Shown: positions 1 to 62,969 of the stretch, in pieces
Layout: every line of letters starts with the position of its first letter
Numbering within the stretch: the first letter of the stretch is position 1
IMG/VR virus record: IMGVR_UViG_3300025000_000012
Location: 1-62,969 of that record
Reading direction: 5' to 3' (one strand)
DNA from: a virus
DNA length: 62,969 nt
Notes under the pieces: model-generated
Database searches by the model: none
What the model saw: only the letters and a program-made list of their open reading frames with translations
What the model was told of the DNA's origin: nothing
Made by a program: the position numbers and the translations under genes

Positions 1-127
1 CCCCCTCCGCCTCTGCTGAAGTAGTACGCGCACCGCAGGGGGTTACTTCTACTGAGACCCCGACTCTTAAAGCTGCTAAGGCTAAAGTAGCAAAGAATAA
101 AAAAGCCACAGCACCTAAAGTCGCTAA
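1..127. repeat. Terminal overlap, an exact copy of 62843-62969 (circular closure of the contig or a short terminal redundancy)
   Basis: Bases 1-127 (ccccctccgcctctgctgaag...aaagtcgctaa) match 62843-62969 base for base. Offset is 62,842 bp. Confidence 0.95.
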
Positions 128-3100
128 GCCCAAGGTTGTCAAGCCTAGGGTTGCCAAAGTTGAGAAGCCCGCTAAAGCCGAGACGCCTAAGGTCGTCAAA
201 GCGGAGAAACCCGTTAAAACTGAGAAGCCCAAAATTGAGAAGCCTAAGGTCGCAGCTAAAGCAAAAGCTGTTGAGGAAAAGAAGACTGCTAAAGAGACTA
301 CTAAAGTCTTGAAGCAGAGTAATGACGAGCGCGCAGCCACTGCAGCTGCGAAGGCTACTGCTGATGCGTTAGCTAAAAATGAGTCCCAAGCTAAGAAGGA
401 CGCCGAGAAAGCAAAGGCCCGTGAAGAGCTCAAGGCGCGTATAACCCCTGAAAAATATAATGAGTATCTCTCTCTGGTTGACGAGATTACGAGCTATACT
501 ACTAAGATTAACAGGGCTGCTCAGAAAGGTGACTTCCAAACGGCCAAAGCCTTAGATCAGTCTAGAAAGATAGCTCAGGCTCGTGTAGCAGCTATAAAAA
601 GTGTACAAACGACCGTCACTGATCAGAAAAAAGATACTAATACGATTGATCAGGCCTCTTCGAAAGTTGAGCAAGACTCAAATGTACAGATTCAGAAAGG
701 GCAAGAAAAAGCGAGTGTAAATCAAGGCTCGCAAGGTAGTTCAGCAAAAGATGTAGAGTCTGAGTTGCAGACCAAACTCGGTGACACTTGGACCTCCCTC
801 AAAACGCTCGGAGCAGCTAAGAAACCCGGTGGTGTAACTATAGTTAATACTGTTCCAGAGGCTCTTGAAGCAATAGGCTCTACTGTTTCAAGACGGAGTG
901 CTAAAGATACTACGACTCAAGCGCTGTATAATCCTAACACCGGGTTATCTGCGATAATAGCTAACAATATTGAGGTAGCTGACGCAGAAGGAATACTGCT
1001 TCACGAAGCTAGTGTTCATGCAATAGAGAATTCTACCCTGGATATGGAAGCTCTGGCACTGTTTAATAATAATAGGCCAACTCCATTTATGCAGTACGTG
1101 GAAGATTCACTCCGCGCAGGTGGGCTCCTTGATGAAGATGGTAATGCTACTGACGCTAATGAGGTGCGCGCCTACATAGTTGAGCATGCTATTAACCTCA
1201 GTCCTCAAAAGACTGTTAACCAGAAGTTTTGGCAATGGCTCAGCTATAATCATCCTAGGATCGCCGCGTACTTGAAGAAAGTAGCTGCGGCTCTTGGGTC
1301 ACACTTTAAGAGTCTAGGTGTCAAGATAGACGAGGGACAGTTAAACGAGGGACAGTTAAACGCGGCAGTAGCTAGTCTTGCAAAAGAAGCTAGGGATGCC
1401 CTGGGTAACGCTGTAAAGACTAAAGACGCGCGGGCTGAAGTCCCTGTCGTAGCATCTGTTAAGGGCTATAAGGAGAACGAAGACGGTGTCTTAGTCAAAG
1501 GCGAAGCTCCAGTAAAACCTGAGAACGTAATACCTCTGAGCTCTGTTAAAGCAGAGAAACTCTCTAAGCAAGACGCCGAGGCTCTTAAAGTCCTTAAAAA
1601 CTTATTTCAGAGTAGACATAAGACTCTCGAGGAAGCCGCAGCTGAGGTTATAGATGACTTTGTTATCTCTACGTCAAATCCAGCCATGCGTAAATACTAT
1701 GAGCTTACGCAGCGGATTAGTAGTTATAAGAGAGACAAGAATAACCAGACGTCAACAGTTTTTGATCGGATAGTTAGCTCACCTGAGTTTTACTTCCCTA
1801 AGACTTCAGCGGGTAAAAAGATTCTGCAAGCCGCTGTTGATGACTCCGATATACGGTACCGTGCGCAGAAACAAGTGCTTGGTGATTTTCTGGATAAGGC
1901 GAACTTGATTCTTAAAAAGAAGCCTAAGGTTTACGCCGCAGTTAATAAGTATTTACTTGACACTGATAAAACCGGAGTAGGCTTCAAGCTTCGTAAAAAT
2001 GGTGAGACCTGGGAGGTTAGAGACCGTAAAGATAAAGTCGTCGCTACACATATGGACGAGGGCGCTGCAAATGCAGATCTTGTTAATGCTGAGCAGGAAT
2101 GGCTTAAGACGCAGCTTATATCAAAGGATGCGCGGGATCTGATTCTCGAAGCCCGGCTTCTTACCAACAGAGCTTTCGATATTCTTATTGCGGATATGCG
2201 TAAGCAGATTACTCGAGCTACTGAGAATGGACTTGACGAGCCCACCGCTATGTTCGTAGACGCGGATGGCAAGACTAATGAAGTATCGCTTACCGAGCTC
2301 ATCGCTAATATGGGTGATCTTCGAGGTACCTATTTTCCTCGTGAACGCGTAGCACGAAACTTTCATCTCGTAGCTGAACAAGAGGGTAAGCCTAGTATCC
2401 TCGAAACATTTGATTGGCACTTCGTTGAGAATGAACTTGGCAATAACCGTGTTCAGATGATGAAGCGTGCTTTTAATAACGCAGCTCCTGCTGGCCGACG
2501 ATACCAAGAGTTACTGAAAGCAGGTTACAAGGCTGAGAATATTAATATCAAGCCCGTGACTTCACCGACAGAGCTCTTATTTGACCTTCCAGGTGTTCTT
2601 GCTTCTCTCGACGCGATTTTTAGTTCTGCTACTGAGAAGATGAATATCGACAGTCTCGAAGAGTCTGATAAACTCTGGATGGGTACTGTTGATAAAGCCC
2701 TAGCTCTACGCGTTGCTGATATCTATAAGGCTAAGGGTAACTTTAGCTCTAGGATGTCTCGAGCTGATAAGCTATGGGAAGGGTATGAGCCTGACATGAT
2801 TCGTGCTCTTACAAGCTACGCTTCACGAGTATCTACGGGCGTAGCCAAGAGAACTACAGCTCGTAAAATGCTTGAGGCCCTAACTGGTCGAGGTGTATCC
2901 TGGAAGCAATACCAAGCACAAGCAGAGAAAGCTAAACAGAAGGTGACTTACCAGGATTACTTAGCATATGTTAAGTCTCAACGGGTAAGCCCGACACAGC
3001 AGAAGATGATGTATGAAGACCTGCGTCAGTACATCAAGTACTTCTTATCACCAGATGACGCGCTTGGTAGAGCTATAGGTTACTTTAAAGCTGCTACGGT

Positions 3101-4490
3101 TCTTAAGTACCTCGGCTTCCGTGTAGGCTCGGCCGCAGTTAATATGACAACCATGGCTATGTCCGTACCCGCTACGATCGCCGGACATACCGGGGCTAAT
3201 CTGTCAACAGTCTTTAAGAATATCGCTAGCGCTAGTAAGTCATACCTGGCGTACAAGCATAACCAGTTAATACAAAGGGGATATAAGTTTCTTGGTAAGC
3301 CTATGTTGGTGAATGAAGCTGACAACGCCATCCTGAATACGATTTATGATAATGGGTGGGCCGAGGCACAGTTCAATCATGACGCAGCTCAGGCTATGAC
3401 AGGTAAAGTCGGCGAGTCTATGAATAACCTCATGGCCGCTGCAATGTATATGTTCGGTGCAGTTGAAGAAGCAAACAGAGCTATAACGATTCTTGCAACT
3501 TACAAGTCTCAGCCTGCTACCCTGGGTATGGGCGATAAGCTGGAGCTCTCCAAGCATACCTCGGATAGAGCTCACGGCATTTACGGTAAAGCTGCGAAGC
3601 CTTGGCTGGTGCAGCGGTATAGATTCTTGGATGCTACGTATACGTTCCAGAAATTTCAGCATACGTACCATCTGAATATGCTCGAGCTCTTCGGAAAGTA
3701 TAAGTCCCCTAAGGCTGTAGCGTTTATGGGATTGATGCCACAGCTGGTAGCAGGAACCTCAGTGACCGCAACTCTCGGCTTTGCTATAGCTTCTCTGTTT
3801 GGCGCCGATGATCCAGAAGAAGAATACACAACTCTTCTGGCTAAGCTCCTTGGTGATAGTGACTTTGCTGAGTCATTTGCCAAGTTCGGTGTAGTAGGCG
3901 CTGCTTTGGGTGTTAACCTTAAAGGCTCACTTGAAGTTAAGTCGCCGTTCCCGTCTACCCTAAGCGAGCTCTTCGGTGCGCCACAGGCTCTCGTGACGGA
4001 CACTATAGAGGGTATAGGCGCTATATCCAGGGGTGAGGGTAGAAGAGGCGCTGAACAGCTTTTGCCTACCGCTTTAGCAGGACCGCTGAAAGGTCATCGA
4101 GAAATGACTGAGGGCGTCACCAAGAGTAATTACGCGCCGGTCTTTGATCAGGGTAATGTAGTTAAAGCGTCTCCAGTAGACTTCGCTAAACGGTTTCTTA
4201 GTTTTAATCCTACTGAGGTTTCTGATATACGAAACACCGCATGGAGGGCAGACGAGATTCGGCGTAAGTATACTACAGCGCGGAGTAAAGTCTCAGCTCG
4301 GTATAACAGACTTATTATCCAGAGAGTACCTGGAGATGATGCTCAGTGGGCTGAATTCTGGAAGTCGGTAGCTCAGTATAACAAGAAAGCGGCTCATGCT
4401 AATCCTAGATACATGATTCCATTCATTGACACGGATTGGCTCTCAGGTCAAGACAAGCGTAACTTCAAGCCTAACAAGTACACGAAGTAG
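3..4490 (+). CDS. Giant virion/ejection (polyvalent-type) protein, C-terminal 1,495 codons. Same ORF as 60760..62969 across the circular junction, 2,190 aa in total.
   Basis: The frame is open from base 3. The ORF-track start (TTG 309) is only the first start-like codon. After removing the 127-bp overlap the frame is continuous with 60760 (63151 and 60760 share phase). Contains a K/A/P basic tract, a coiled-coil-like region and hydrophobic helices near the C-terminus (VAFMGLMPQLVAGTSVTATLGFAIASLFG). Confidence 0.8.
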   Translation, partial: PSASAEVVRAPQGVTSTETPTLKAAKAKVAKNKKATAPKVAKPKVVKPRVAKVEKPAKAETPKVVKAEKPVKTEKPKIEKPKVAAKAKAVEEKKTAKETTKVLKQSNDERAATAAAKATADALAKNESQAKKDAEKAKAREELKARITPEKYNEYLSLVDEITSYTTKINRAAQKGDFQTAKALDQSRKIAQARVAAIKSVQTTVTDQKKDTNTIDQASSKVEQDSNVQIQKGQEKASVNQGSQGSSAKDVESELQTKLGDTWTSLKTLGAAKKPGGVTIVNTVPEALEAIGSTVSRRSAKDTTTQALYNPNTGLSAIIANNIEVADAEGILLHEASVHAIENSTLDMEALALFNNNRPTPFMQYVEDSLRAGGLLDEDGNATDANEVRAYIVEHAINLSPQKTVNQKFWQWLSYNHPRIAAYLKKVAAALGSHFKSLGVKIDEGQLNEGQLNAAVASLAKEARDALGNAVKTKDARAEVPVVASVKGYKENEDGVLVKGEAPVKPENVIPLSSVKAEKLSKQDAEALKVLKNLFQSRHKTLEEAAAEVIDDFVISTSNPAMRKYYELTQRISSYKRDKNNQTSTVFDRIVSSPEFYFPKTSAGKKILQAAVDDSDIRYRAQKQVLGDFLDKANLILKKKPKVYAAVNKYLLDTDKTGVGFKLRKNGETWEVRDRKDKVVATHMDEGAANADLVNAEQEWLKTQLISKDARDLILEARLLTNRAFDILIADMRKQITRATENGLDEPTAMFVDADGKTNEVSLTELIANMGDLRGTYFPRERVARNFHLVAEQEGKPSILETFDWHFVENELGNNRVQMMKRAFNNAAPAGRRYQELLKAGYKAENINIKPVTSPTELLFDLPGVLASLDAIFSSATEKMNIDSLEESDKLWMGTVDKALALRVADIYKAKGNFSSRMSRADKLWEGYEPDMIRALTSYASRVSTGVAKRTTARKMLEALTGRGVSWKQYQAQAEKAKQKVTYQDYLAYVKSQRVSPTQQKMMYEDLRQYIKYFLSPDDALGRAIGYFKAATVLKYLGFRVGSAAVNMTTMAMSVPATIAGHTGANLSTVFKNIASASKSYLAYKHNQLIQRGYKFLGKPMLVNEADNAILNTIYDNGWAEAQFNHDAAQAMTGKVGESMNNLMAAAMYMFGAVEEANRAITILATYKSQPATLGMGDKLELSKHTSDRAHGIYGKAAKPWLVQRYRFLDATYTFQKFQHTYHLNMLELFGKYKSPKAVAFMGLMPQLVAGTSVTATLGFAIASLFGADDPEEEYTTLLAKLLGDSDFAESFAKFGVVGAALGVNLKGSLEVKSPFPSTLSELFGAPQALVTDTIEGIGAISRGEGRRGAEQLLPTALAGPLKGHREMTEGVTKSNYAPVFDQGNVVKASPVDFAKRFLSFNPTEVSDIRNTAWRADEIRRKYTTARSKVSARYNRLIIQRVPGDDAQWAEFWKSVAQYNKKAAHANPRYMIPFIDTDWLSGQDKRNFKPNKYTK

Positions 4491-40426: not shown

Positions 40427-40511
40427 CGTATTTCACCAAATGATTAAATACCCAGCAAAAGAACAAGCCGCAGATAATCATTCTTATCTGCGGCTCATTC
40501 CTATCTAAGAA

Positions 40512-40808
40512 TCATTCCTCTTTTTCCTCATAAATCCGGCCCTTTGAATCCTTTCCAAACTTCAAACCATCCTTACGAAGATATGACAACTGACTCGACA
40601 CATTGCGCTCACTAATGCCGATCGCTTCGCCAATATCTTTGATGCTAATCCGACCATTTGTCCTTATCAGATTGACGACTTGCTCTTTCCGACCTTCACC
40701 TTTCTCGCCGACTTTCTTGACCAGCTCTTCGCGCTCCGCCTTCAAAGCCGCAATCTCTTCAAGCAGCAGTTCCATTTCCGATTTTGCACTCTCGTTTTCT
40801 TTCTTCAT
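40512..40808 (-). CDS. Winged-HTH DNA-binding protein with an N-terminal coiled coil (98 aa), candidate regulator
   Basis: ELLLEEIAALKAEREELVKK, then GRISIKDIGEAIGISERNVSSQLSYLRKDG. Paralogous to the N-terminus of 26718..27260. Confidence 0.7.
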   Translation of the reverse strand: MKKENESAKSEMELLLEEIAALKAEREELVKKVGEKGEGRKEQVVNLIRTNGRISIKDIGEAIGISERNVSSQLSYLRKDGLKFGKDSKGRIYEEKEE

Positions 40809-40863
40809 GATGTCACCCTCTCTTTGATTTTTAACTCCTTAACTACATCCTTCCTACAATTTA

Positions 40864-40892
40864 ATTATATCATATTTCACAATATACACAAC
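40864..40892 (-). promoter_or_regulatory. Candidate promoter for the 40808 gene (TATAAT -10, weak -35)
   Basis: TATAAT at 40869-40864. -35 GTTGTG/TTGTGT 16-17 nt upstream. Confidence 0.35.
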
Positions 40893-40942
40893 TATATTAC
40901 ACCTTATAACAAAATTAAAAATTTGCCTGCGGCGCTATAATT

Positions 40943-41075
40943 GTGGTCGCTACGCTCCCATTTAATATCCGTTCACTTCGTTCACTCTATAACATATATT
41001 CATCGCTACGCTCTTCATTCTAGTGGTCGCGCTGCTCCCATTAATAAATCGTTCACGCTGTTCACTTAATAACAT
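40943..41075. repeat. Two 53-bp imperfect direct repeats, period 80 bp
   Basis: GTGGTCGCTACGCTCCCATTTAATATCCGTTCACTTCGTTCACTCTATAACAT (40943-40995) versus GTGGTCGCGCTGCTCCCATTAATAAATCGTTCACGCTGTTCACTTAATAACAT (41023-41075). TCGCTrCGCTC and GTTCAC sub-repeats. Confidence 0.85.
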
Positions 41076-41228
41076 GAGATCCTGTCGGATCAATGACTTG
41101 CAGTCGCTGCGCTCCTGTCTGCAGGACCATAAAAATCAGGCAATTTGCAGACTAGGCGGGTGTACCCTGTCCAAATACTGTACAGCACTTCCTCTTTCCT
41201 ATAGCTCCGGAAAAAATTAGAATCCCTT

Positions 41229-41333
41229 AGACCTCTCAATACACTTTGTGTACAGCTTCTCTGAGTCATTACTCTCGTGAAATCTGGAATCCCTTAACTC
41301 GCCTGTACACATTTAGAAAGGGCTACACTGAAT
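41229..41333 (+). repeat. Two degenerate direct repeats: GAATCCCTTA followed by the TACAC(T/A)TT motif
   Basis: agaatcccttagacctctcaatacactttgtg (41229-) and ggaatcccttaactcgcctgtacacatttagaaaggg (41297-41333). Confidence 0.7.
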
Positions 41334-41414
41334 CTTAGCTACACCATATACCAGTTTACTTAATATTCAATCTTTCGGAGCCTGAAAACACTCGCCTATA
41401 TTATATAGTGAAAG

Positions 41415-41530
41415 CTCTCTAGAAAGTGTATAACAGCCCTTCTGCTCTCATTTCATCAAGTCCGAGTACAAACGTATACCTAAAATTTTCGGTCAGTCTA
41501 AGGCTCGTTTATACACTTTCAGAAAGGGCC
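41415..41530. repeat. Copy D of the ~105-bp inverted-repeat-bounded element, upstream of the late operon
   Basis: Arms AAAGTGTATAAC (41423-) and GTTTATACACTTT (41507-41519), central ACAAACGTAT. The right arm continues CAGAAAGGGCC (full motif, plus orientation). Confidence 0.8.
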
Positions 41531-41582
41531 ACCTCCTATCTCTCTGGTCAAACGGGTTTGGTATAAATTTTAAATAAGTCGG

Positions 41583-41611
41583 TTTACTTTTCAGCTTAAC
41601 TAGGGTATAAT
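41583..41611 (+). promoter_or_regulatory. sigma70-type promoter TTTACT-N17-TATAAT
   Basis: -35 at 41583-41588, -10 at 41606-41611. About 55 nt upstream of the 41666 gene. Confidence 0.7.
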
Positions 41612-41665
41612 ACAGAAAAGTAGAAGTATATCTTAATTTCATCACAAACAGTCAAGGAAACATAC

Positions 41666-42252: not shown

Positions 42253-43107
42253 ATGAAAACAGTAGAAGAGAAACAAGCGAACAACACAGCAAGCAGATTA
42301 TATTATGCTGAAATGAGTGCTGAGAAAAAGGCACGACGAATGGAGGCGCAGAGAATTTATCGGCAGAACCCGGTAAATCGAGAAAAAGCAAGAGAAGCCT
42401 GTAGAAAGGCTAGACTAGACCCCGAGAAGCGTGCCAAATACAACAATTGTACTAAGGCTTATAATACCAAGACTAGGCTTGACCCAGAAGTTCGGACACA
42501 ACAAAATGAAGCTAGCCGAATAGCTCGAGCTCTTGATAGGTTGGACCCGGAAAAGTGTGAAAAGTTTAATGAAGCGAGTAGATTGAGTACAGCGAAAGCC
42601 CGGTTAACCCCACAAGGTAAACATAAATCCAGTATGTCTAGTATCAAAAGTCGGTACTGCCTTTCTGAAGAGGATTTTCGGGACCTGATGGATGCACAAA
42701 AGGGGTGCTGCGCGATTTGTGGAACCGATTTTGGTGAGCTGTTTAGAAGAGCCTCAGTTGATCATTGTCATATAACTGGAAAAATAAGAAAACTGTTATG
42801 TAATAAGTGTAATACCTCAGTCGGACAAATAGAGTTTCTTAATCCTGAACACGCGATAGAGTACTTAGAAAAACCGGATACCCAGATACTGTATAATACA
42901 AGTTCTGCGCAGCAATATAAAAAGACACACGACGCGCATTGTGAATTATGCGGGCGTACTGAAAATTTAGTCATAGATCATAATCATTCTACTGGAAACA
43001 TACGAGGTATTCTGTGTAGTACTTGTAATAACGCACTTGGCGCGGTAGAGTCCCACATGTTTTCTGCATACGTTCAGTACGCACGAGGCGGCAATTGTGC
43101 GGTTTGA
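42253..43107 (+). CDS. Endonuclease VII (HNH-superfamily) protein with two nuclease cores (284 aa)
   Basis: CCAICG...VDHCHITGKIRKLLCNKCNTSVG and CELCG...IDHNHSTGNIRGILCSTCNNALG. N-terminal ~21-aa repeats RLDPEKRAKYN / RLDPEVRTQQNEASR / RLDPEKCEKFNEASR. Confidence 0.85.
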   Translation: MKTVEEKQANNTASRLYYAEMSAEKKARRMEAQRIYRQNPVNREKAREACRKARLDPEKRAKYNNCTKAYNTKTRLDPEVRTQQNEASRIARALDRLDPEKCEKFNEASRLSTAKARLTPQGKHKSSMSSIKSRYCLSEEDFRDLMDAQKGCCAICGTDFGELFRRASVDHCHITGKIRKLLCNKCNTSVGQIEFLNPEHAIEYLEKPDTQILYNTSSAQQYKKTHDAHCELCGRTENLVIDHNHSTGNIRGILCSTCNNALGAVESHMFSAYVQYARGGNCAV

Positions 43108-44560
43108 ATTAATAACAGATACTTTAGATCCTGTACTCCAAGCTTATTTAGACTCTAGAGCCCGCGTTAGTATTATAATAGGCCCTTTGGGGTCAGGTAA
43201 AACTTATACTAGCTGCCAAAAGATGTTTACCTTGATGTGCGGACAAAAACCAAATCAACAAGGGTATAGAAAATCACGTTGGATAGCAATTAGAAATACA
43301 TTTCCAGATCTATTAACAACAACTGTAAAAGACTGGATAGACTTGTTTGGTGAACTTGGTACGTACAAAGCTGGTGGAACATCACCGCCTAGTCATACAC
43401 TAAGATTTAGACTGCCAGATAAATCGTTAGTATTAGCAGAATTAATTTTCATAGCTCTAGATAGACCCGCTGCTATTAAAAAGCTTCGTGGTACACAGGT
43501 TACCGGCTTTTGGTTAAATGAAATAAAGGAGCTCGATAAATCTATTATTGATATGGCCGACTTTAGACACGGTCGATATCCAAGCGCAATGGACGGCGGG
43601 CCCAGCTGGCATGGAATATTCGGTGATTCGAATCAATGCGATGACGACCACTGGATGTACACTATGGCTGAAGAAACAAAGCCTGAAGGATGGGAGTTTT
43701 TTACACAGCCTGGTGGTTTGATGCGTGAGATGATTGATACTGATGGTACCCAAGAGTGGACTGGTAAATGGGTTAGTAACCCCGCCGCTGAAAACATACG
43801 GAACTTGCCGGGTCGAGAATTATATTATATGAACGGGCAGCAAGGTAAAGATCAAGCGTGGATCGCGGTTAACTTGGGAAATCAATATGGAACAGTCGAA
43901 GATGGTAAAGCAATCTACGCCGAGCAGTGGCACGACGACGTTCACGTCTCTACTTCTATAGAGCTGATTGAGGATCACGAGATTATAGTTGGCATGGACT
44001 TCGGTTTGACACCTGCTGCAATCATTGGTCAAGAGACGCCGAACGGTACGCTGCATATCTTAGAAGAGCTCGTCGCAGAGGGCATGGGTATTAATCAATT
44101 TGCCACAAACATCCTTTTGCCGGCTCTACGTGCTAGGTACAGCAAGTGTGAATGGGTATTCGTTGGAGACCCTGCAGGAAACAAGAGGGCTGATACTGAT
44201 GAGCAAACTGTCTTTAAAGAACTTGACGACCTTGGGATATCCGCTGAGGCTGCAAACTCCAATGACCCAACTATACGCTGGGAAGCAGTTCGATACTTCT
44301 TACAGCAGATGCGCGGCGGCAAGCCCGCGTTCAGACTTCATACTCGCTGTAAGATGCTCCGCAAAGGGTTTAACGGTGGTTACAAGCTTAGACGCATTCA
44401 GCTAGCTGGATCAACTAAGTATGCCTCTAAGGCAGATAAAAATAAATTTAGCCATCCCCATGATGGTTTACAATACCTCTGTATGTACGTCAAGGGAGAA
44501 ACTGGTGCTACATCAAACAACGACTTTGAGAGACCTGAGGAAAATAGATGGTCAGCTTAG
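43097..44560 (+). CDS. terL: Terminase large subunit (487 aa)
   Basis: Walker A IIGPLGSGKT, Walker B-like GFWLNEIKE, C-terminal nuclease-domain acidic motifs (VGMDFG, VFVGDPAG). Confidence 0.9.
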   Translation: MRFELITDTLDPVLQAYLDSRARVSIIIGPLGSGKTYTSCQKMFTLMCGQKPNQQGYRKSRWIAIRNTFPDLLTTTVKDWIDLFGELGTYKAGGTSPPSHTLRFRLPDKSLVLAELIFIALDRPAAIKKLRGTQVTGFWLNEIKELDKSIIDMADFRHGRYPSAMDGGPSWHGIFGDSNQCDDDHWMYTMAEETKPEGWEFFTQPGGLMREMIDTDGTQEWTGKWVSNPAAENIRNLPGRELYYMNGQQGKDQAWIAVNLGNQYGTVEDGKAIYAEQWHDDVHVSTSIELIEDHEIIVGMDFGLTPAAIIGQETPNGTLHILEELVAEGMGINQFATNILLPALRARYSKCEWVFVGDPAGNKRADTDEQTVFKELDDLGISAEAANSNDPTIRWEAVRYFLQQMRGGKPAFRLHTRCKMLRKGFNGGYKLRRIQLAGSTKYASKADKNKFSHPHDGLQYLCMYVKGETGATSNNDFERPEENRWSA

Positions 44561-57266: not shown

Positions 57267-58456
57267 TGATAGGTGAGGGTTTTCTCTTTATATACGACTT
57301 TGCTGTATTCTTTGAGGGCGAAGGTACACTTTCTGTCGGTCAGTCTACCGCCAACCTCGTGACTTTTACGGGCATAGGTGAGTTGTCGATTGAGTCCTCA
57401 AGTAACTATGGCTTCGCATTAATCCCGGCTATTGTCTCACAGGGACAAGAGAGCGCAGACTTTCCAGGCTGGGGTGACGCGATGATTCCGCCTATATTCT
57501 CAAGTGGCACTGGCGGGTTCTATACTCCTCCGGATCCTGAGTACGGGTTTGCATTTATTCCAGCTATTCAGTCCTTCGGGTACATGAACGAGCCCGGAGG
57601 TCAAGGCTCTGCGTATATTCCTTCGCTCGTCTCTCAAGGTGTTGAGGGTCCATATGGTTCCGGCGTAGCGTCTATCCCAACGATTCAGAGTTTCGGTTGG
57701 GACGATTTTGGACCACAAGAAGCGCCGATTATATCCATAGTGTACGCCTTCTCTGGTGCGGGCGCTAAAGTGGATATGATTGTTTTTATAAATGAACGCG
57801 GTGAGATAACTGATACTATATCTGGATCACGGATTCAACTAGAGTCGATTTTAGCATCAATTAATGCTACTGGCTCCATAGTATCTATAGGGTCTTTCCT
57901 CGCTTCCGCGGTATCGCAAGCTTATGCAACTACATCCAGTAGCGGTATTGTAGAGTACCTCGATGAAGATATTGTAATAAGTAAACCTTCAGTTAATGAC
58001 ACAAATAGAGTATGGGTCGTTAACATTGATACGGGCGCCTCCGGTCAGTACGATGGGTACGGCTTTAATTCATTCTTTGAAGAAGACGGTATTTGTTACG
58101 GCGTAGCGGAAGATGGTATCTATCAGCTTGACGGCACTACTGATAGCGGTCAAGATATTGACGCACTGTTAGAGATCGGTAAATCTAACTTCGGTATCCA
58201 GGAAGAGAAGAAGATCATAAATGTTTACGCTGGTGTAAGATCAGATAATACCATGCTGCTCAAGGTAGACGCTGATGGTGAGTCTTATATCTACGAGGCC
58301 CGACGAGCTAACGACGAATTGTCAAATACTCGATTCGACGTCGGCAAGGGCCTTAAGGGTAACTACTATAACTTTACGCTGCTTAATAACGAAGGCGGTG
58401 ACTTTGAGTTAGAAACAATGTCATTTGAACCTGTAACCCTTTCAAGGAAGATATAA
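57266..58456 (+). CDS. Virion/tail protein (396 aa)
   Basis: TAATG overlap. Internal repeats of the type FALIPAIVSQG / FAFIPAIQSFG / SAYIPSLVSQG / VASIPTIQSFG. Confidence 0.65.
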   Translation: MIGEGFLFIYDFAVFFEGEGTLSVGQSTANLVTFTGIGELSIESSSNYGFALIPAIVSQGQESADFPGWGDAMIPPIFSSGTGGFYTPPDPEYGFAFIPAIQSFGYMNEPGGQGSAYIPSLVSQGVEGPYGSGVASIPTIQSFGWDDFGPQEAPIISIVYAFSGAGAKVDMIVFINERGEITDTISGSRIQLESILASINATGSIVSIGSFLASAVSQAYATTSSSGIVEYLDEDIVISKPSVNDTNRVWVVNIDTGASGQYDGYGFNSFFEEDGICYGVAEDGIYQLDGTTDSGQDIDALLEIGKSNFGIQEEKKIINVYAGVRSDNTMLLKVDADGESYIYEARRANDELSNTRFDVGKGLKGNYYNFTLLNNEGGDFELETMSFEPVTLSRKI

Positions 58457-59424
58457 TGGCTACACCGCAAGAGTTCATAGATAATATAATCAGTAATGCC
58501 TTAGACACCGCGGATAATCAAACTGAAGCAGCGTCTGACGCAGCAGATGATTTGATCCGAGTCAACGCAGGTTTCTACCTCACTCCTCCGGACAGCTCAG
58601 CGGGCTTTGCAGTAGAGGCAGTAGAGCCCGAGATTCCTACTGCAAAGGACTCTACATATACGTACGAGGTAGAGTTGGAAAAATTGATAGCACTTCTCTC
58701 TGGCCAATTAGCTAGCTTCTTTCAGCTTTATTATCCATTAAGCTCAGATGCGTTTGATGAAGCTACAACATGGCTTGTTAATACGATAACTGTAGGCGGC
58801 ACGGGTATACGTCCTGATATCGAAGATCAGACATGGCAACGAGACCGTGAAAGAATAATCACCGAGGGTAATCGTCTTGAAGCCCAGGTAACAATAGGCT
58901 TCGCAGCTAAAGGCATTATGCTTCCTGCCGGTGCAATGAATAAGCAGATACGCAATATACGTCAAGCTGGTTACGCGGAGATAGGAAAAGCTTCTACAAC
59001 TATAGCAGTTGAGCAGCTCAAGATTGAAATTGAGACAATCAAGTTTGCAGTTGGTAAAGCTCTTGAGTCTCGTCAAATGGCTATGCAAGCCGCAGCAGAT
59101 TATATTCGCGCTATAGCGTCAGCGCCAGACGCTGCTGCTAGAGTCGCTGCTCTTAATAGTGACGTACAAGCCAAGATGATGGCTGCAGCAGCGAGTTTCT
59201 ACGGCGTACGGCTCGACCGTGATAAGATCGTTCTCACGTCCAAGCTCGCTGAGATGGAGTCACGTGATACGATCTACAGGCATCGTCGTGACAATGCAAC
59301 ACAGAATGACCAAGTTAAAGTACAGGCCTTAGCCGCCGCTGCTGATGTATTTGCAAGAACCGCTTCAGCTGCGCTCTCTAGCCTTAATAGTATCGTGTCC
59401 TCAGCCACTAACGCGTTTGCATAA
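58456..59424 (+). CDS. Internal virion protein candidate (322 aa, Ala-rich helical)
   Basis: TAATG overlap. Position and composition are comparable to the podovirus internal core proteins that precede a giant ejection protein. Confidence 0.6.
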   Translation: MATPQEFIDNIISNALDTADNQTEAASDAADDLIRVNAGFYLTPPDSSAGFAVEAVEPEIPTAKDSTYTYEVELEKLIALLSGQLASFFQLYYPLSSDAFDEATTWLVNTITVGGTGIRPDIEDQTWQRDRERIITEGNRLEAQVTIGFAAKGIMLPAGAMNKQIRNIRQAGYAEIGKASTTIAVEQLKIEIETIKFAVGKALESRQMAMQAAADYIRAIASAPDAAARVAALNSDVQAKMMAAAASFYGVRLDRDKIVLTSKLAEMESRDTIYRHRRDNATQNDQVKVQALAAAADVFARTASAALSSLNSIVSSATNAFA

Positions 59425-59434
59425 GGAGAAGACT

Positions 59435-60760
59435 ATGGCATGGCCTAATGATAAAGCTGCTTACAAAGCACCAGTTAAAAGTAAGTTACAGAAAAAGATT
59501 GATGCAACTCCTGTTGGTACAGTAGCGGGTGCCCTCGGAAAAGCCGCTACTATTCCGCCGCGGGTTTTTAGTACAGTAGTTGAAAAAGCACCGGTTACTC
59601 AAGTAGCTAGCGCTGTGGCTAATACACTTTCTCAGGACAGTGCTACACAGAAACAAGCTATTGGTGCTATAACGCGTAAACGTGTTGGGGATAGCCGTAG
59701 AGGCTTGGTAACTCCGTTTAACTCAGACCTTAACGCACCTGCTACTGTTATACGTACACCCCCAGTTGAACCAGTAAGTGCTCCAGCTGTAGCAGTTCCT
59801 GTTTCGGCTTCGGTACAGCCTACTAGGTCTAGCCAGGTAGCACGTCAGGCGTTGATCAGTAAAGCGATGACCCGAGGTTCTGTACAACAGCCTTTTGCGG
59901 GTACTCAACAAGTCGGTAACATGGACGTAACCTTCGATAAGTCAGTACCTACTGCAGCACGACAAGCTTTTATGACTAATCCAGTGGAACCTACCGCGGG
60001 TATTCAGCGTTACCAAGATTATATGAATACACCGCGAGGTAGATTCTTCGGCGCTACTCCGGTGTCTGACGACACCGAGAGACCTATTGTCATGAATACA
60101 TTTGGCCAAGTCATGCAGGAAAAAGCACGCCGCAGTCTGATCAAAGACAACGCTGCAATGGATGCAGTATCTGAGAAGAACAGGATTGATGACCAGAGTA
60201 ATAAAGCATATAATGCTAATCAAGTCGAGAAAAACCGTATCGATGAAGAGGGCAACCTCCGAACCGCTGGTATAGAGAGCGCCAAGAATGCGCTGACGGC
60301 TAAAGAGGTCGCTTCACAGTCGGGCCTCAGAAGTGCACAAGCCGATCAAGCACAAACCGAGACAGAGGTTAAGCAGCAGCAATTCCTTCAGGAACGTCAA
60401 GTTGCTAAGCTTACTGATACAGTTATTAACGGTAAAACTCCTGAAGCACGTAAAGAAGCTGCGGAGATGCTTAAGTCTATTGGTGAGGTTAAGGGAAGTA
60501 CTTCTCAGCCTGAGATTATCCAGACTCCACCTATAGAAGAGCGTGATCCTGAAACCGGCGCACTGCGAACAGTACCTGGGACAATTTATAGAGTTGACAA
60601 GCAAACTGGCACATCCCGGGAAGTAGTTCCTGAGGGCGTTAACTTACCGTCAATCGCAGATGGTCAGGCAAGTTACCTGAAGTACAAAGGCACCGCTAAA
60701 GAAGCCGCGGCTAAAGCTGCATTCATAAAACAATTTGGATTAGACCCAGAGACATTATAA
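59435..60760 (+). CDS. Internal virion protein candidate (441 aa)
   Basis: Start re-set to ATG 59435 (AAGGAGAA upstream). Its stop overlaps the ATG of the giant ORF (TAATG). Confidence 0.6.
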   Translation: MAWPNDKAAYKAPVKSKLQKKIDATPVGTVAGALGKAATIPPRVFSTVVEKAPVTQVASAVANTLSQDSATQKQAIGAITRKRVGDSRRGLVTPFNSDLNAPATVIRTPPVEPVSAPAVAVPVSASVQPTRSSQVARQALISKAMTRGSVQQPFAGTQQVGNMDVTFDKSVPTAARQAFMTNPVEPTAGIQRYQDYMNTPRGRFFGATPVSDDTERPIVMNTFGQVMQEKARRSLIKDNAAMDAVSEKNRIDDQSNKAYNANQVEKNRIDEEGNLRTAGIESAKNALTAKEVASQSGLRSAQADQAQTETEVKQQQFLQERQVAKLTDTVINGKTPEARKEAAEMLKSIGEVKGSTSQPEIIQTPPIEERDPETGALRTVPGTIYRVDKQTGTSREVVPEGVNLPSIADGQASYLKYKGTAKEAAAKAAFIKQFGLDPETL

Positions 60761-62969
60761 TGGCAAAACCTTTTGACTTGCTGGAAGAAGAGACAACTTC
60801 TGTAAACAAACCTTATGATCTTCTGGAAGGTACTGAAAGTACTACGACAGATCCGACATTAGGCGGTATAACTGATACTCCTGTTGAAGGTGGCTTTGTA
60901 GCCTCTGCTAAGCAGTCCGTAGGCTCGACGATTAAAGGCATTGGACAAGCTGCTGCAGATTATATTCCAGGAGTAGAACAAGATAATCCTCTGACCTCTT
61001 ATGGTCAAGAAGTAATTGAAGCGAATCCTACAAAGATTCAAAAGCTGTCAGACGTTCCCGAGAATCCACTTACTACTGTAACTGAAGCAACGGGCGGCTC
61101 TGTTCCTCCTTTAGCTGGTATGATGGGTGTCCGGGCTCTTGGCGCGGGTATTACCGCTGTAGCTCCGCTCACAGGTCCCGCTGCTCCTGTAGTAGCTGGG
61201 ATCGGCGCATTCACCTCCTGGGCAGGCCCCGCTATTATCGCAGCACTTCCGTCCTATAGCAGCATCCGTGATAAGCAAATCTTTAAAGACCCTGATGCGC
61301 AGGAAGCCGCCGCGTCTAAATTCAAGGCTCTTCTTGGCGCTGGTGTAGTCGGCGCTATTGAAGTAGCCTTCGGTCCACAAGAGTGGGCCCTCGCTGCGAT
61401 GACTAAAGAGGGCCGTAAGGCCCTTGCTAAGAAGATCGAGAAGCTCGGTCTTGGTCAATCGTTTGTCCATACAGTAGGAACCTCCGCTGCTATTGAGGGA
61501 GCTGAAGAGCTTGTACAGAACCCAGTTGAGCAACTCGCCGCAGGTGATAACCCACTCACTGAAGAGAGTCTCATGGAGACAGCTCTTGGCGGTGTTATGG
61601 GTGTAGCCGGTGGCGGTGTCATGGGTGGAGTTACACACGTTCTTCTTCCTAAGAGCAAGACTAAGGGAGATCCCTCTGAAGCGGTCCTCTCGCATATCGA
61701 GAAACAGAAGCCTACTGCTCTGCAGCTCACAGCTCTTAAGAACTCACCTGAGCAGTTGAAGAGAGTAGGACTCACGCCCGCGCACATAGACTCTCTCCTG
61801 GCTAAGCATGATAGTGGGACCGTTGAGACTGCACAATTCCAGTCCCTCTTAGACTCCGCACCCAACGATACTATACGCGCAGGTCTACTTGCTACTGCAG
61901 CAGGTGCTAAACACCTCTCAATCGAGAACGCCGAGACTATACGTAAGACCGCAGAAGCTAAAGCAAAAGAGCTTTCACACGCTAATGCTTTAACTTTAGC
62001 TGAGTCTCGGCGTACCGAACTCGCTGCTAAAATCGATCTTACACCTGACGAGGCCGTTCAGCTTACTCTCCTTAATAAAGCTGGCGTAGACCCAATAAAA
62101 CTCGGCCGCGCACTCAACAAGACTATAACAGAGGTCCCAGATTCTGCTAAGCCTGTTCCTCCGCCGAGTACTGACCTTTTACACTCAGACGCCAAGACTC
62201 TTATTGATGCTCGTGCTAATGAGCTTGCTAACAAGAAGTTCAGAACAACTAGCGAGAAGCATGAGCTTCTTAAGCTCGGCAAGATTCAGTCCGGTGGGTA
62301 TAGGATTGGCGATGTAGCAAAGACTCTTGGTCGTACGGTCCTTAAAGATCCTAAGGTCGCGACTCCTGTTACTGAGACTCCTGTTGTACCTAAGAATTAC
62401 TTAACCGCACAGCCGGGTGACATAATTACGCTATACCGCGGTGAGAACTCAGAGAATACTAAAGACGGTGAATGGTGGACTACTGATAAAGCTAAAGCAG
62501 AACGGTACGGTGTAGTAACGGAAGTATCGCTTCCTGCTGAAGTAGCCGCAGCTCATGCGGCGATGGGACATCATGGTCCAGACGAGTATGTCTTCTCAGG
62601 TAAACGCCCTGCTGAACTCGTCAATACACAGACTACTGCTACTCCTGAAGACATTGAAGCGCAGATCGCGGAGCAAGAAGCACCCGCTCCCGAGTTTGAT
62701 CTTCTTGCTAATGAAGCTGGATCTGAGGTCAATGACATTATGTATGACCTCGCTGATCAAGCCGTCGATACGCAGGATCAAGCGGATACCCGTGCTCGAG
62801 CTCAGAGATTCAAGACTCTCCAAGCTGCTGTACCTAACAACACCCCCTCCGCCTCTGCTGAAGTAGTACGCGCACCGCAGGGGGTTACTTCTACTGAGAC
62901 CCCGACTCTTAAAGCTGCTAAGGCTAAAGTAGCAAAGAATAAAAAAGCCACAGCACCTAAAGTCGCTAA
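60760..62969 (+). CDS. Giant virion/ejection (polyvalent-type) protein, N-terminal 736 codons (continues at 3..4490)
   Basis: ATG 60760. I translated the frame by eye to the window end and found no stop. Gly/Ala-rich hydrophobic segments (GMMGVRALGAGITAVAPLTGPAAPVVAGIGAF) and a compact YRG...WWTTD...DEY module at 62421-62601. Absent from the ORF track because it has no stop in the window. Confidence 0.8.
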   Translation, partial: MAKPFDLLEEETTSVNKPYDLLEGTESTTTDPTLGGITDTPVEGGFVASAKQSVGSTIKGIGQAAADYIPGVEQDNPLTSYGQEVIEANPTKIQKLSDVPENPLTTVTEATGGSVPPLAGMMGVRALGAGITAVAPLTGPAAPVVAGIGAFTSWAGPAIIAALPSYSSIRDKQIFKDPDAQEAAASKFKALLGAGVVGAIEVAFGPQEWALAAMTKEGRKALAKKIEKLGLGQSFVHTVGTSAAIEGAEELVQNPVEQLAAGDNPLTEESLMETALGGVMGVAGGGVMGGVTHVLLPKSKTKGDPSEAVLSHIEKQKPTALQLTALKNSPEQLKRVGLTPAHIDSLLAKHDSGTVETAQFQSLLDSAPNDTIRAGLLATAAGAKHLSIENAETIRKTAEAKAKELSHANALTLAESRRTELAAKIDLTPDEAVQLTLLNKAGVDPIKLGRALNKTITEVPDSAKPVPPPSTDLLHSDAKTLIDARANELANKKFRTTSEKHELLKLGKIQSGGYRIGDVAKTLGRTVLKDPKVATPVTETPVVPKNYLTAQPGDIITLYRGENSENTKDGEWWTTDKAKAERYGVVTEVSLPAEVAAAHAAMGHHGPDEYVFSGKRPAELVNTQTTATPEDIEAQIAEQEAPAPEFDLLANEAGSEVNDIMYDLADQAVDTQDQADTRARAQRFKTLQAAVPNNTPSASAEVVRAPQGVTSTETPTLKAAKAKVAKNKKATAPKVA
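62843..62969. repeat. Terminal overlap, an exact copy of 1-127
   Basis: See the feature at 1-127. Confidence 0.95.

What the first reader, a model, noticed from the sequence alone, without database searches (positions are those of the whole stretch)
60760..62969. A 2,190-codon ORF appears only after the contig is circularised
The ORF track shows a 1,393-aa ORF at 309..4490 and nothing on the plus strand after 60760. The frame of 309..4490 is in fact open back to base 3. Bases 1-127 equal 62843-62969, and the frame starting at ATG 60760 (TAATG-coupled to the preceding gene) has no stop up to the window end and is in phase across the overlap. The true gene is 6,573 nt, about 10% of the genome. 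It follows two internal-virion-type genes, so it sits where T7 gp16-like or N4-like giant ejection proteins sit. Its parts are: Gly/Ala-rich hydrophobic N-terminal segments, a small enzyme-like module, a histone-H1-like basic tract, a coiled-coil-like region and a C-terminal cluster of hydrophobic helices. That architecture fits the polyvalent virion proteins of phages, but none of its domains could be named from the sequence alone.
Basis: partly seen in the sequence, partly recalled or inferred. Interest (0 to 1): 0.65.

Follow-up and report, generated by a model that had tools for sequence, protein, structure and literature searches.

The report
Split gene for giant virion protein
The two ends of this circular phage contig cut one real 2,190-codon gene in half; it encodes a giant multi-domain protein of a known kind that related phages carry in the virion and are thought to inject with their DNA, so it is a correct but fairly ordinary finding with a few new details.

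Summary
Bases 1-127 equal 62843-62969, and the frame from ATG 60760 runs in phase across the join to a stop at 4488-4490 (2,190 aa, 10.5% of a 62,842-bp circle). An independent assembly (L006) carries the same 6,573-nt gene unbroken, with 0 mismatches. The exact protein is on record from 11 contigs.

It is a new member of the giant "polyvalent"/PLxRFG virion proteins of Bcep22-, Parlo- and 933W-type podophages. The ~900-aa C-terminal body matches NCBIfam NF032893 (E 6e-27) and Parlo's 3,764-aa protein (E 1e-122). Its predicted fold matches 51 viral giant-protein models but nothing in the PDB.

Between conserved ends lie variable modules:
- an ~80-aa high-confidence domain of unknown function, also found in an N4-like virion RNA polymerase;
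- a Lys/Ala/Pro-rich basic tract;
- a coiled coil;
- a metallopeptidase-like module (invariant H-E-H-E-Y, here HEASVH).

It has no methylase or helicase, so the "DarB-like" label does not fit.

Packaging and injection are inferred from relatives (JC1 gp69 and phi24B gp47 found in virions; PTXU04 gp25 needed for fitness).

New detail: a duplicated aromatic/acidic motif at the extreme N-terminus across the family, possibly a capsid-targeting signal.

The parts
60760..62969 (+). 5' part of the giant gene (codons 1-736 plus 2 nt). ATG 60760 overlaps the TAA of the upstream gene.
1..4490 (+). 3' part of the giant gene. Bases 1-127 duplicate 62843-62969; the unique continuation is 128-4487; the stop codon is 4488-4490.
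62843..62969 (.). 127-bp terminal overlap, identical to bases 1-127. It is the MEGAHIT k=127 signature of a circular or circularly permuted genome, not a biological repeat.
60760..60861 (+). N-terminal leader (aa 1-34) with a twin motif, KPFDLLE (aa 3-9) and KPYDLLE (aa 17-23). A candidate capsid-targeting signal.
   Evidence: precedent for P1 DarB
60862..61644 (+). Conserved N-module (aa 35-295). It opens with GGF and has Gly/Ala-rich hydrophobic segments at aa 117-162, 188-206 and 278-296. It is 50-62% identical in about 100 giant proteins and has no Pfam model.
61648..62379 (+). Helical region (aa 297-540), shared with P0104 (56% identity), P0103 and P0147.
62389..62637 (+). Small alpha/beta module (aa 544-626) with the pattern TLYRGE..G.WWTT..KA..YG..GHxG.DE[FY]VF. 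Invariant positions are R560, T575 and G585. Function unknown.
62638..62904 (+). Acidic linker (aa 627-715), including a third motif-like PEFDLLA at aa 644-650.
63..317 (+). Lys/Ala/Pro-rich basic tract (aa 716-800, 28 Lys in 85 aa). Its first 65 nt are also present at 62905-62969, so the contig break lies inside it.
318..719 (+). Ala/Lys/Glu-rich, coiled-coil-like spacer (aa 801-934). No homologues found.
720..1412 (+). Metallopeptidase-like module (aa 935-1165) with HEASVH at aa 1029-1034. Family-invariant residues are H1029, E1030, H1034, E1082 and Y1086.
1413..1754 (+). Linker predicted to be disordered (aa 1166-1279; pLDDT below 50 over most of it).
1755..4487 (+). C-terminal body (aa 1280-2190). 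It is mostly alpha-helical with hydrophobic helices around aa 1933-1998. The NF032893 'tail-700/PLxRFG' match covers aa 1620-2160 (nt 2775-4397).
59345..60760 (+). Conserved upstream partner gene. The ORF is 471 aa; gene callers start it at 59435, giving 441 aa. Homologous ~490-aa genes sit directly upstream of the giant gene in relatives.
58456..59424 (+). 322-aa gene of the same conserved block. It shows weak similarity to the 322-aa gene at the same position in L002.

Best explanation
This is one real gene for a 2,190-aa 'polyvalent' virion protein of a temperate, roughly 63-kb podophage from groundwater. The phage has Bcep22/Parlo/933W-type head genes.

**Shown here**
- The gene is contiguous.
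- The protein is built as a conserved chassis with swappable modules in between.
- The chassis consists of an N-terminal leader with a twin motif, the N-module, and a ~900-aa C-terminal body ending in the PLxRFG/tail-700 domain.
- The modules are a small conserved alpha/beta domain, an H1-like basic tract, a coiled-coil spacer and a zincin-like module.

**Inferred from relatives**
- The protein is made late and loaded into the capsid. The N-terminal leader is the most likely address label, as in P1 DarB.
- The metallopeptidase-like module may contribute to loading, as the corresponding region does in N4 vRNAP.
- It is held loosely folded as beads on a string and is expelled through the tail at infection, ahead of or with the DNA.

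**More speculative**
- The hydrophobic N-module and C-terminal body help build or extend the trans-envelope DNA conduit. That would explain why a comparable polyvalent protein is needed for fitness in PTXU04.
- The middle modules act inside the cell. The basic tract may bind the incoming DNA. The zincin-like module may self-process the protein or cleave host targets. The small domain has an unknown activity.
For: **Contiguity**
-.

**Phage type**
- Portal, major capsid, adaptor and head-closure families.
- Major capsid protein about 40% identical to Burkholderia JC1/DC1 and Serratia Parlo, with 933W-type Stx phages also matched.
- Integrase present.

**C-terminal homology**
- NF032893, E 6e-27.
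- tblastn matches to the Parlo, LASTA and SopranoGao 'PLxRFG/DarB-like' giants.
- Tail-700 profile against the Parlo giant, E 1e-122.
- 41 proteins share the C-terminal domain.
- Relatives fall in phrog_10089 and related PHROG families.
- AF2 model with pLDDT 77 matches 51 BFVD viral models, best E 1.6e-22.

**Chassis and cargo**
- The N-module is 50-62% identical in about 100 proteins whose middles differ.
- At least 12 proteins carry both the N-module and the C-terminal module.
- Five proteins carry both the small module and the tail-700 domain.

**Position in the genome**
[quoted passage not shown] 933W has the same layout with a 421-aa gene.

**Virion presence of relatives**
- JC1 gp69 was detected by mass spectrometry, and the paper relates it to Bcep22 gp75 (PMC9144972).
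- phi24B gp47 was detected by proteomics, was invisible in cryo-EM, and was proposed as an ejection protein (bioRxiv 10.64898/2026.04.10.717836).

**Other support**
- Fitness requirement: PTXU04 gp25 (PMC11879866).
- Capsid-targeting precedent: the N-terminal 30 residues of P1 DarB suffice to target a reporter to the capsid (PMC9024508).
- The region of N4 vRNAP containing the metallopeptidase domain is required for encapsidation (PMC5512222). The window's module profile aligns to that HELVH site.
- Beads-on-a-string ejection model for N4 (PMC13434306).
Against: - There is no experimental data for this uncultivated phage.
- The query matches no Pfam or PHROG model. Its NF032893 score of 94.4 bits is just below the curated cut-off of 100.
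- The N-module and the small module are absent from all 50,697 GenBank phage records searched. The relatives with virion evidence therefore share only the C-terminal body (Parlo/Bcep22 type) or only the zincin-like module (933W/phi24B type).
- A membrane or conduit role rests only on moderately hydrophobic Gly/Ala-rich segments and on analogy.
- No solved structure resembles the C-terminal body.
- T7 gp14-16 show no convincing sequence match.
- The metal-binding motif has an extra residue (HEASVH), so catalysis is uncertain.
Confidence: 0.65

Rival explanations
1. The protein is a packaged cargo carrier only. It would be an accessory anti-defence or host-takeover effector injected with the DNA, with no role in forming the DNA conduit. 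It would be dispensable on permissive hosts, as P1 DarB is.
For:
- The middle region is highly variable between relatives, which is typical of arms-race cargo.
- The basic tract is unique to this protein among 135 giant proteins examined.
Against: - The conserved termini make up more than half of the protein, and the N-module is conserved far more strongly than any cargo.
- PTXU04 gp25 is required for fitness.
- No other candidate ejection proteins could be recognised in the virion module.
- The phi24B authors propose a conduit role for gp47.
Confidence: 0.25
2. It is a DarB-type antirestriction protein. It would methylate or shield the incoming DNA through the methylase plus SF2-helicase pair, as the annotation of its closest named relatives suggests.
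For: - Its C-terminal relatives are annotated 'DarB-like antirestriction'.
- Relatives fall in phrog_10089, which carries the same label.
Against: - There is no methylase, helicase or LPD36 match even at E <= 1.
- Similarity to Parlo's protein is confined to the tail-700 domain and the zincin-like module.
- At 2,190 aa the protein has no unassigned stretch large enough for a methylase-helicase pair.
Confidence: 0.04
3. The genome is linear with a genuine 127-bp direct terminal repeat. The two ORF pieces would then be separate and truncated, and the in-phase join would be a coincidence.
For: Some podophages, such as T7, have short direct terminal repeats (general knowledge).
Against: - 127 equals the MEGAHIT k-mer, and the contigs are named k127_.
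- L006 and L007 are broken elsewhere and read straight through the junction with 0 mismatches.
- The full-length protein has been called on 11 contigs.
- Homologues carry both halves in one polypeptide.
- Relatives of this phage type are circularly permuted headful packagers (PMC9144972).
Confidence: 0.01
4. It is an external structural component, such as a tail fibre, a spike scaffold or a tape-measure-like ruler, rather than an internal ejected protein.
For: It lies among tail and virion genes. The downstream genes of 585, 317, 273 and 550 aa are uncharacterised, and one of them has a weak 'virion structural protein' PHROG match.
Against: - The predicted structure is a chain of helical bodies with disordered linkers and shows no beta-helix or fibre folds.
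- phi24B gp47 is abundant in virions but absent from the cryo-EM reconstruction of the tail and capsid shell.
- Podophages have no tape measure (general knowledge).
Confidence: 0.03

Closest known systems
Giant 'DarB-like / PLxRFG domain' virion proteins of Bcep22-like and Parlo-like podophages (Serratia Parlo gp081, 3,764 aa; Burkholderia JC1 gp69, 4,515 aa; Bcep22 gp75; Klebsiella LASTA, SopranoGao)
   Same: - Same capsid lineage.
[quoted passage not shown]
- Homologous ~600-aa tail-700/PLxRFG C-terminal domain (E 1e-122).
- Shared metallopeptidase-like module (E 5e-16).
- JC1 gp69 is virion-associated by mass spectrometry.
   Different: - The window protein is about half the size.
- It lacks the methylase-helicase pair that gives these proteins their name.
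- It has a different N-terminus. Parlo's starts with a transglycosylase-like sequence, and the N-module profile reaches only E 0.002 against it.
- It carries a small module and a basic tract that these proteins lack.
- Its metal motif is HEASVH, whereas Parlo's is HEAFH.
Stx-phage giant polyvalent protein (phi24B gp47, 2,811 aa; 933W ST933Wp72, 2,806 aa, 'LPD5 domain-containing protein')
   Same: - Related major capsid and portal lineage.
- A giant gene at the end of the virion module, preceded by a ~420-aa gene.
- Shared metallopeptidase-like module (E 8e-18).
- gp47 was detected in virions, is not visible by cryo-EM, and is proposed to be an ejection protein.
   Different: - The C-terminus is of the LPD38 type, not tail-700; the tail-700 profile gives no hit.
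- The N-module is not detected.
- The metal motif is the classic HEIIH.
Polyvalent proteins as defined by Iyer, Burroughs, Anand, de Souza and Aravind 2017 (PMC5512222)
   Same: - A very large phage protein that joins disparate modules.
- Encoded next to late virion genes.
- Includes a zincin-like module of the kind proposed to process or help load such proteins.
- Homologues of its N-module carry ART-PolyVal, LPD38, LPD23, RadC and ParB-like domains.
   Different: - None of the Pfam LPD, ART or metallopeptidase models built from that study hits this protein.
- Its N-module, small module and this variant of the zincin-like module have no Pfam model.
Coliphage N4 virion RNA polymerase gp50 (3,500 aa) and N4-like vRNAPs
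   Same: - A giant, capsid-packaged, ejected, beads-on-a-string protein with a putatively membrane-active N-terminal region.
- One N4-like vRNAP (P0100) carries the same small module at 53% identity.
- The N4 gp50 HELVH region aligns to the window's zincin-like module in the same motif order.
   Different: - The window protein has no RNA polymerase domain.
- N4 itself lacks the small module.
- The match to N4 gp50 scores only 10.6 bits.
T7 gp16 (internal virion protein D) and the T7 gp14-gp15-gp16 ejectosome
   Same: - It is the largest protein of the virion module in a podophage.
- It is predicted to be internal and ejected.
- A Roseobacter phage CRP-4 protein annotated 'Internal virion protein D' matches the predicted C-terminal body structurally (E 3.5e-7).
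   Different: - No convincing sequence similarity to T7 gp14, gp15 or gp16. The best match is E 0.004 over 50 aa in a five-sequence search.
- No PDB structural hit.
- No lytic transglycosylase domain detected.
Phage P1 DarB (2,255 aa class; antirestriction, capsid-packaged)
   Same: A giant protein packaged in the head and delivered with the DNA. Its N-terminal 30 residues act as a capsid-targeting signal, which is the model for the twin-motif leader here.
   Different: - No sequence similarity.
- No methylase-helicase pair.
- P1 is a myophage and needs five helper Dar proteins.

Membership tests
PLxRFG domain-containing proteins (NCBIfam NF032893, 'tail-700') | HMM score at or above the curated cut-off of 100 bits | tested here: inconclusive
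   The score is 94.4 bits, E 6.1e-27, covering profile positions 117-647 of 681 at aa 1620-2160. This is just under the operational cut-off but far beyond chance.
PLxRFG domain-containing proteins (NCBIfam NF032893, 'tail-700') | Homology of the C-terminal ~600 aa to annotated members, located at the very C-terminus of a giant phage protein | tested here: met
   - tblastn matches to the Parlo, LASTA, SopranoGao and ZX1 'PLxRFG' proteins.
- An iterated profile hits Parlo gp081 aa 3159-3732 at E 1e-122.
- 41 relatives share the domain, including P0050, which NCBI names a PLxRFG protein.
- 51 BFVD structural matches.
Polyvalent proteins (Iyer et al. 2017) | Several unrelated modules in one very large polypeptide | tested here: met
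   At least six separable modules, each with its own set of homologues. The AF2 model shows discrete bodies joined by disordered linkers.
Polyvalent proteins (Iyer et al. 2017) | Encoded by a portal-terminase phage among late/virion genes | tested here: met
   Terminase, portal, major capsid, adaptor and head-closure genes lie upstream on the same strand.
Polyvalent proteins (Iyer et al. 2017) | Contains domains of the described repertoire (LPD1-40, MPTase, ART-PolyVal and others) | tested here: inconclusive
   No Pfam model hits the query. However, its N-module is fused to ART-PolyVal, LPD38, LPD23, RadC and ParB-like domains in homologues. Its zincin-like module is shared with the 933W 'LPD5' and Parlo giant proteins.
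Polyvalent proteins (Iyer et al. 2017) | Packaged in the virion and delivered with the DNA | not testable with these tools
   Known only for relatives: JC1 gp69 and phi24B gp47.
DarB-like antirestriction proteins | LPD36 plus N6-adenine methylase plus SF2/SNF2 helicase | tested here: not met
   No such Pfam match at E <= 1. Similarity to 'DarB-like' phage proteins is limited to the tail-700 and zincin-like modules.
Zincin-like metallopeptidases (gluzincin / polyvalent-protein MPTase type) | HExxH on a helix plus a downstream Glu as third metal ligand, on a zincin fold | tested here: inconclusive
   **For**
- H1029, E1030, H1034, E1082 and Y1086 are invariant across 23 aligned relatives.
- The family mixes classic HExxH members with HExGxH members.
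- 933W, Parlo and N4 have classic HExxH at the aligned site.
- The model shows beta strands, then a helix carrying the motif, then a helix carrying the Glu, with pLDDT 85-96.

**Against or unresolved**
- The query has HEASVH, with one extra residue.
- Pfam and PDB matches are sub-threshold: DUF6782 in 6 of 23 members, and HtpX, IrrE and PepO at E 0.16-0.6.
- No separate fold search of the module could be run.
ADP-ribosyltransferases (ART-PolyVal PF18760 / R-S-E ARTs), considered for the small module | ART fold with a catalytic triad in canonical strands | tested here: not met
   - Only 1 of 38 members touches PF18760, at E 0.0012.
- hhalign against 38 genuine ART-PolyVal domains gives 14% probability over 35 columns, and the LYRG motif is not aligned.
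- The best Foldseek PDB hit is Tpt1 at E 0.77 and TM 0.42; PARP13 scores TM about 0.4.
- The domain is about 80 aa, roughly half the size of an ART fold.
T7 gp16-type internal virion protein D | Sequence or structural similarity to T7 gp16 | tested here: not met
   The best profile hit is E 0.004 over 50 aa in a five-sequence search. No PDB fold match has E < 0.5. The only link is a structural match to a differently sourced protein that carries this name (CRP-4).
N4-like virion RNA polymerases | Single-subunit RNAP domain (Pfam vRNAP domains) | tested here: not met
   The query has no vRNAP Pfam match. P0100, which shares the small module, does have them.

The most novel reading that the evidence does not exclude
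The twin aromatic/acidic N-terminal motif, the GGF-initiated N-module and one of a few alternative C-terminal bodies may together form a general 'address label and delivery chassis'. A large, mostly uncultivated class of podophages would use it to load any cargo into the capsid and inject it. On this reading the two motif copies dock on a phage-specific partner, perhaps the conserved ~480-aa upstream gene product or the portal. The C-terminal body would be the functional analogue of T7 gp16. The small LYRGE-WWTT domain, shared with N4-like virion RNA polymerases, would be a previously undescribed injected enzyme or host-factor-binding domain.
Probability: 0.3. Interest if true: 0.6.

Novelty: new member of a known kind. 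Interest (0 to 1): 0.35.

Why it matters
**Practical point.** Gene callers run on linearised circular contigs silently lose or truncate the largest gene of this phage. The ORF track showed a 1,393-aa TTG-start fragment and nothing for the first 736 codons. Any catalogue built from such contigs under-counts giant virion proteins.

**Biological points.**
- The protein extends the PLxRFG/polyvalent family to a form without the methylase-helicase pair. This shows that the widespread 'DarB-like antirestriction' label is attached to the conserved C-terminal body rather than to any antirestriction activity.
- The conserved ends, the variable middle and the duplicated N-terminal motif suggest a testable packaging and delivery logic. 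That logic could be reused to load foreign proteins into phage heads, as has been done with T4 and P1.
- The small domain and the HExGxH-type metallopeptidase-like module are recurrent domains in injected phage proteins that have no family model.

Tried and rejected
- **Whole-protein family scans.** Pfam and PHROG scans found nothing significant.
- **Word-indexed homologue search of the middle region.** It returned nothing and even missed P0100, probably because low-complexity words filled the candidate list. The exhaustive HMMER scan replaced it.
- **Searches for close relatives by peptide patterns.** Scans of viral, metagenome and genome contigs found none. The junction was instead verified by exact look-up of the neighbouring 441-aa protein.
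- **ART hypothesis for the small module.** Rejected as membership.
- **Sequence-profile searches of solved structures.** None was significant for the small module, the zincin-like module or the C-terminal body.
- **Foldseek of the 1,200-aa model against the PDB.** Only noise.
- **Upstream genes.** The 471-aa and 322-aa genes have no Pfam match and no GenBank-phage match, and no informative PHROG match.
- **Upstream partner comparison.** Parlo gp080 and 933W p71 show no detectable similarity to the window's 471-aa partner.
- **T7 gp14-16.** No convincing match to any module profile.
- **The Bcep22 paper (Gill et al. 2011).** Not held in the library.

Full report
**1. The observation**

The first 127 bases of the window are identical to the last 127, and no other terminal overlap length is found. 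The 127-mer occurs only at the two ends. ATG 60760 overlaps the TAA of the preceding gene. The nearest upstream in-frame stop is at 60712, with no other start codon between them.

From 60760 the frame is open to the end of the window (736 codons). The frame of ORF 309..4490 is open back to base 3. With the overlap collapsed the two pieces are in phase and give 2,190 codons (6,573 nt) with a stop at 4488-4490. That is 10.46% of a 62,842-bp circle. No 15-mer near the junction is repeated anywhere in the circle, so a repeat-driven misjoin is unlikely.

**2. Independent proof of the junction**

The neighbouring 441-aa protein is recorded on many other contigs. One of them, L006, comes from a different sample and assembly and is 55,212 bp long. 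It has a called 2,190-aa gene well inside the contig, flanked by the same genes of 322 and 441 aa upstream and 118, 585 and 317 aa downstream. That gene is identical to the joined window ORF at all 6,573 nt. An 800-nt junction-spanning segment is contiguous in L006 and in L007.

L007 is a 62,969-bp MEGAHIT contig named k127_115315, from groundwater project PRJNA268031, and it is broken at a different place. The 127-bp overlap is therefore the assembler's k-mer signature for a circular or circularly permuted genome. The exact 2,190-aa protein is on record from 11 contigs.

**3. What phage this is**

The + strand from 41.7 kb onward encodes an endonuclease VII-like protein, large terminase, portal, major capsid protein, adaptor/head-closure proteins and other virion proteins. 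An integrase lies at 10186-11028. The capsid protein is about 40% identical to those of Burkholderia phages JC1, DC1 and BcepMigl, Serratia phage Parlo and Ralstonia GP4-like phages. It also matches 933W-type Stx phages.

All of these podophages of roughly 60 kb encode one enormous protein at the end of the virion module. The Bcep22-like ones are reported to be terminally redundant and circularly permuted (PMC9144972).

**4. Family assignment**

Whole-protein scans against Pfam and PHROGs find nothing significant. NCBIfam NF032893 ('tail-700', PLxRFG domain) matches aa 1620-2160 at E 6e-27, scoring 94.4 bits against a cut-off of 100. tblastn matches the same region to the 'PLxRFG / DarB-like' giant proteins of Parlo, LASTA, SopranoGao and others. 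An iterated profile of this region hits Parlo's 3,764-aa protein at E 1e-122 and 41 metagenomic giant proteins. Relatives fall in phrog_10089 ('DarB-like antirestriction') and sister families.

An AlphaFold2 model of aa 960-2159 (mean pLDDT 77) has three parts:
- a confident globular module at aa 960-1134;
- a disordered linker at aa ~1138-1279;
- a large, mostly helical body at aa 1280-2159.

Foldseek finds nothing for this model in the PDB (best E 0.59). It finds 51 significant matches among predicted viral structures (best E 1.6e-22). These are C-terminal pieces of giant phage proteins annotated as polyvalent, methylase, helicase or ART proteins. They also include ~1,400-1,500-aa virion proteins of other podophages: Roseobacter CRP-4 'Internal virion protein D', a Cellulophaga phi14:2 structural protein, and proteins of Vibrio ICP2 and Celeribacter P12053L.

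**5. Anatomy (amino-acid coordinates)**

(a) *aa 1-34, leader with a duplicated motif.* The two copies are KPFDLLE and KPYDLLE.

(b) *aa 35-295, the N-module.* It is 50-62% identical in about 100 proteins of 1,200-3,800 aa whose middle regions differ. It has Gly/Ala-rich hydrophobic segments. It has no Pfam model and is absent from GenBank phages.

(c) *aa 297-540, helical region.* It is shared with P0104, P0103 and P0147.

(d) *aa 544-626, the small domain.*
- It has 38 homologues in proteins of 146-4,997 aa.
- One of these is an N4-like virion RNA polymerase, 53% identical over the module. Five are tail-700 proteins.
- It folds at pLDDT 92 but has no significant structural neighbour.
- Its LYRG / WWTT / DE[FY]VF pattern suggested an ADP-ribosyltransferase. 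Profile-profile comparison gives 14% probability. Foldseek's best hits are Tpt1 at E 0.77 and PARP13, with TM about 0.4. Neither supports membership.

(e) *aa 716-800, Lys/Ala/Pro-rich tract.* It has 28 Lys in 85 aa. It is unique in strength among 135 giant proteins and is built on degenerate 15- and 42-nt repeats. The contig break falls inside it.

(f) *aa 801-934, coiled-coil-like spacer.* No homologues were found.

(g) *aa 935-1165, metallopeptidase-like module.*
- It is present in more than 40 relatives. H1029, E1030, H1034, E1082 and Y1086 are invariant.
- Relatives carry either HExxH or HExGxH. The query has HEASVH.
- The module profile hits the 933W giant protein (E 8e-18, motif HEIIH) and the Parlo giant (E 5e-16, motif HEAFH). 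It aligns weakly to N4 gp50 at HELVH.
- Direct Pfam and PDB evidence is only sub-threshold: DUF6782, HtpX and IrrE.

(h) *aa 1280-2190, the C-terminal body.* It is described in section 4 and includes hydrophobic helices around aa 1933-1998.

There is no methylase or helicase, so 'DarB-like' describes neither the content nor the likely activity of this protein.

**6. Genomic context**

The 471-aa gene directly upstream is homologous to the ~490-aa genes directly upstream of the giant genes in L004 and L002 (E 6e-9 and 9e-8). The 322-aa gene and the C-terminus of the 396-aa gene also have counterparts there. 933W has a 421-aa gene in the same position, but with no detectable similarity.

None of these partner genes has a family assignment. 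In JC1, the 510-aa protein encoded just upstream of the giant gene is virion-associated.

**7. How it most likely works**

*Evidence from relatives.*
- JC1 gp69 is found in purified virions.
- phi24B gp47 is found in virions by proteomics, is invisible in the cryo-EM reconstruction, and is proposed to be an ejection protein.
- Knock-down of the 2,198-aa polyvalent protein of coliphage PTXU04 strongly reduces plating.
- The first 30 residues of P1 DarB suffice for capsid targeting.
- The metallopeptidase-containing region of N4 vRNAP is needed for encapsidation.
- N4 vRNAP is thought to travel as loosely folded beads on a string.

*Inference for this protein.* It is made late and loaded into the capsid through its N-terminal leader and module. 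It is then ejected at infection.

*Speculation.* The hydrophobic termini contribute to the trans-envelope conduit. The basic tract binds the incoming DNA. The zincin-like module processes the chain or a host target.

**8. An unplanned finding**

In 49 of 88 N-module proteins, the short leader before the conserved GGF contains two 7-mers that are at least 5/7 identical (13 pairs are 7/7). The copies are 9-27 residues apart and rich in Asp, Phe and Leu. In 55 of 88 proteins the pair beats shuffled controls at p <= 0.05.

The motif differs between proteins (FDDLIP, FDFDxxGN, NPFGD, LLSDADVFG and others), but the two copies co-vary within each protein. This points to two equivalent docking sites on a phage-specific partner. 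I found no description of it in the papers I read.

**9. Verdict**

The object is a new member of a known kind, the giant polyvalent/PLxRFG virion proteins. It has an unusual cargo set and some domain-level novelties. Interest is moderate to low.

Noticed in passing
window 60766-60828 (aa 3-23); also the N-termini of about 100 homologues (P0001-P0102): There is a duplicated aromatic/acidic 7-mer before a conserved GGF. In 49 of 88 family members a pair of 7-mers is at least 5/7 identical, with the copies 9-27 aa apart. The motif differs between proteins but co-varies within each protein. Some variants (FDDLIP, FDDIF) recall the SSB C-terminal tip; that resemblance is from memory only. It is a possible capsid-targeting or partner-docking signal.
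   Followed up: partly
window ends versus L007 (contig k127_115315): Two 62,969-bp linearisations of the same circle both break inside the giant gene: at codon 736 in the window and at codon 1998 in L007. The gene is 10% of the genome, so two independent arbitrary breaks landing in it has about a 1% chance. Strain-level variation in this gene may be ending the assembly paths there.
   Followed up: no
window 38593-41665: About 3 kb between the leftward and rightward gene blocks holds only small ORFs, the longest being 98 aa. It includes an AT-rich core at 39000-40000 (32-34% GC, against 45.5% for the genome). There are no tRNA genes and no Rfam matches anywhere in the window. It is probably a divergent regulatory or origin region.
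   Followed up: partly
giant protein, whole length: There are no cysteines in 2,190 residues.
   Followed up: no
window 63-317 (aa 716-800): The Lys/Ala/Pro-rich tract has 21 Lys in its best 60-aa window, against 14 or fewer in 134 other giant proteins. Shorter KP-rich tracts occur at a similar relative position in P0047 and P0070. The DNA shows degenerate 15-nt and 42-nt tandem repeats.
   Followed up: partly
homologue lists; GenBank phage searches: The N-module and the small module are common in metagenomes. They also occur in Nitrosospira, Nitrosovibrio and Quatrionicoccus genomes (P0029, P0034, P0050). They are absent from all 50,697 GenBank phage records searched. This hints at betaproteobacterial hosts and at a phage group with no cultured representative.
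   Followed up: no
window 59345-59435: The 471-aa ORF overlaps the preceding 322-aa gene by 80 nt. Gene callers on other contigs start it at 59435, giving 441 aa, so the ORF-track start is probably too early.
   Followed up: partly
window 42253-43107: An endonuclease VII-like gene with two HNH-type matches lies immediately upstream of, and overlapping, the large terminase gene (43097-44560). No small terminase was recognised.
   Followed up: no
window 4609-10152: The five genes downstream of the giant gene (118, 585, 317, 273 and 550 aa), lying before the integrase, have no family assignment apart from a weak 'virion structural protein' match for the 317-aa one. The C-terminus of the 585-aa protein resembles the N-terminus of the 696-aa protein at the same position in L004. 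These are probably tail fibre or receptor-binding genes.
   Followed up: partly
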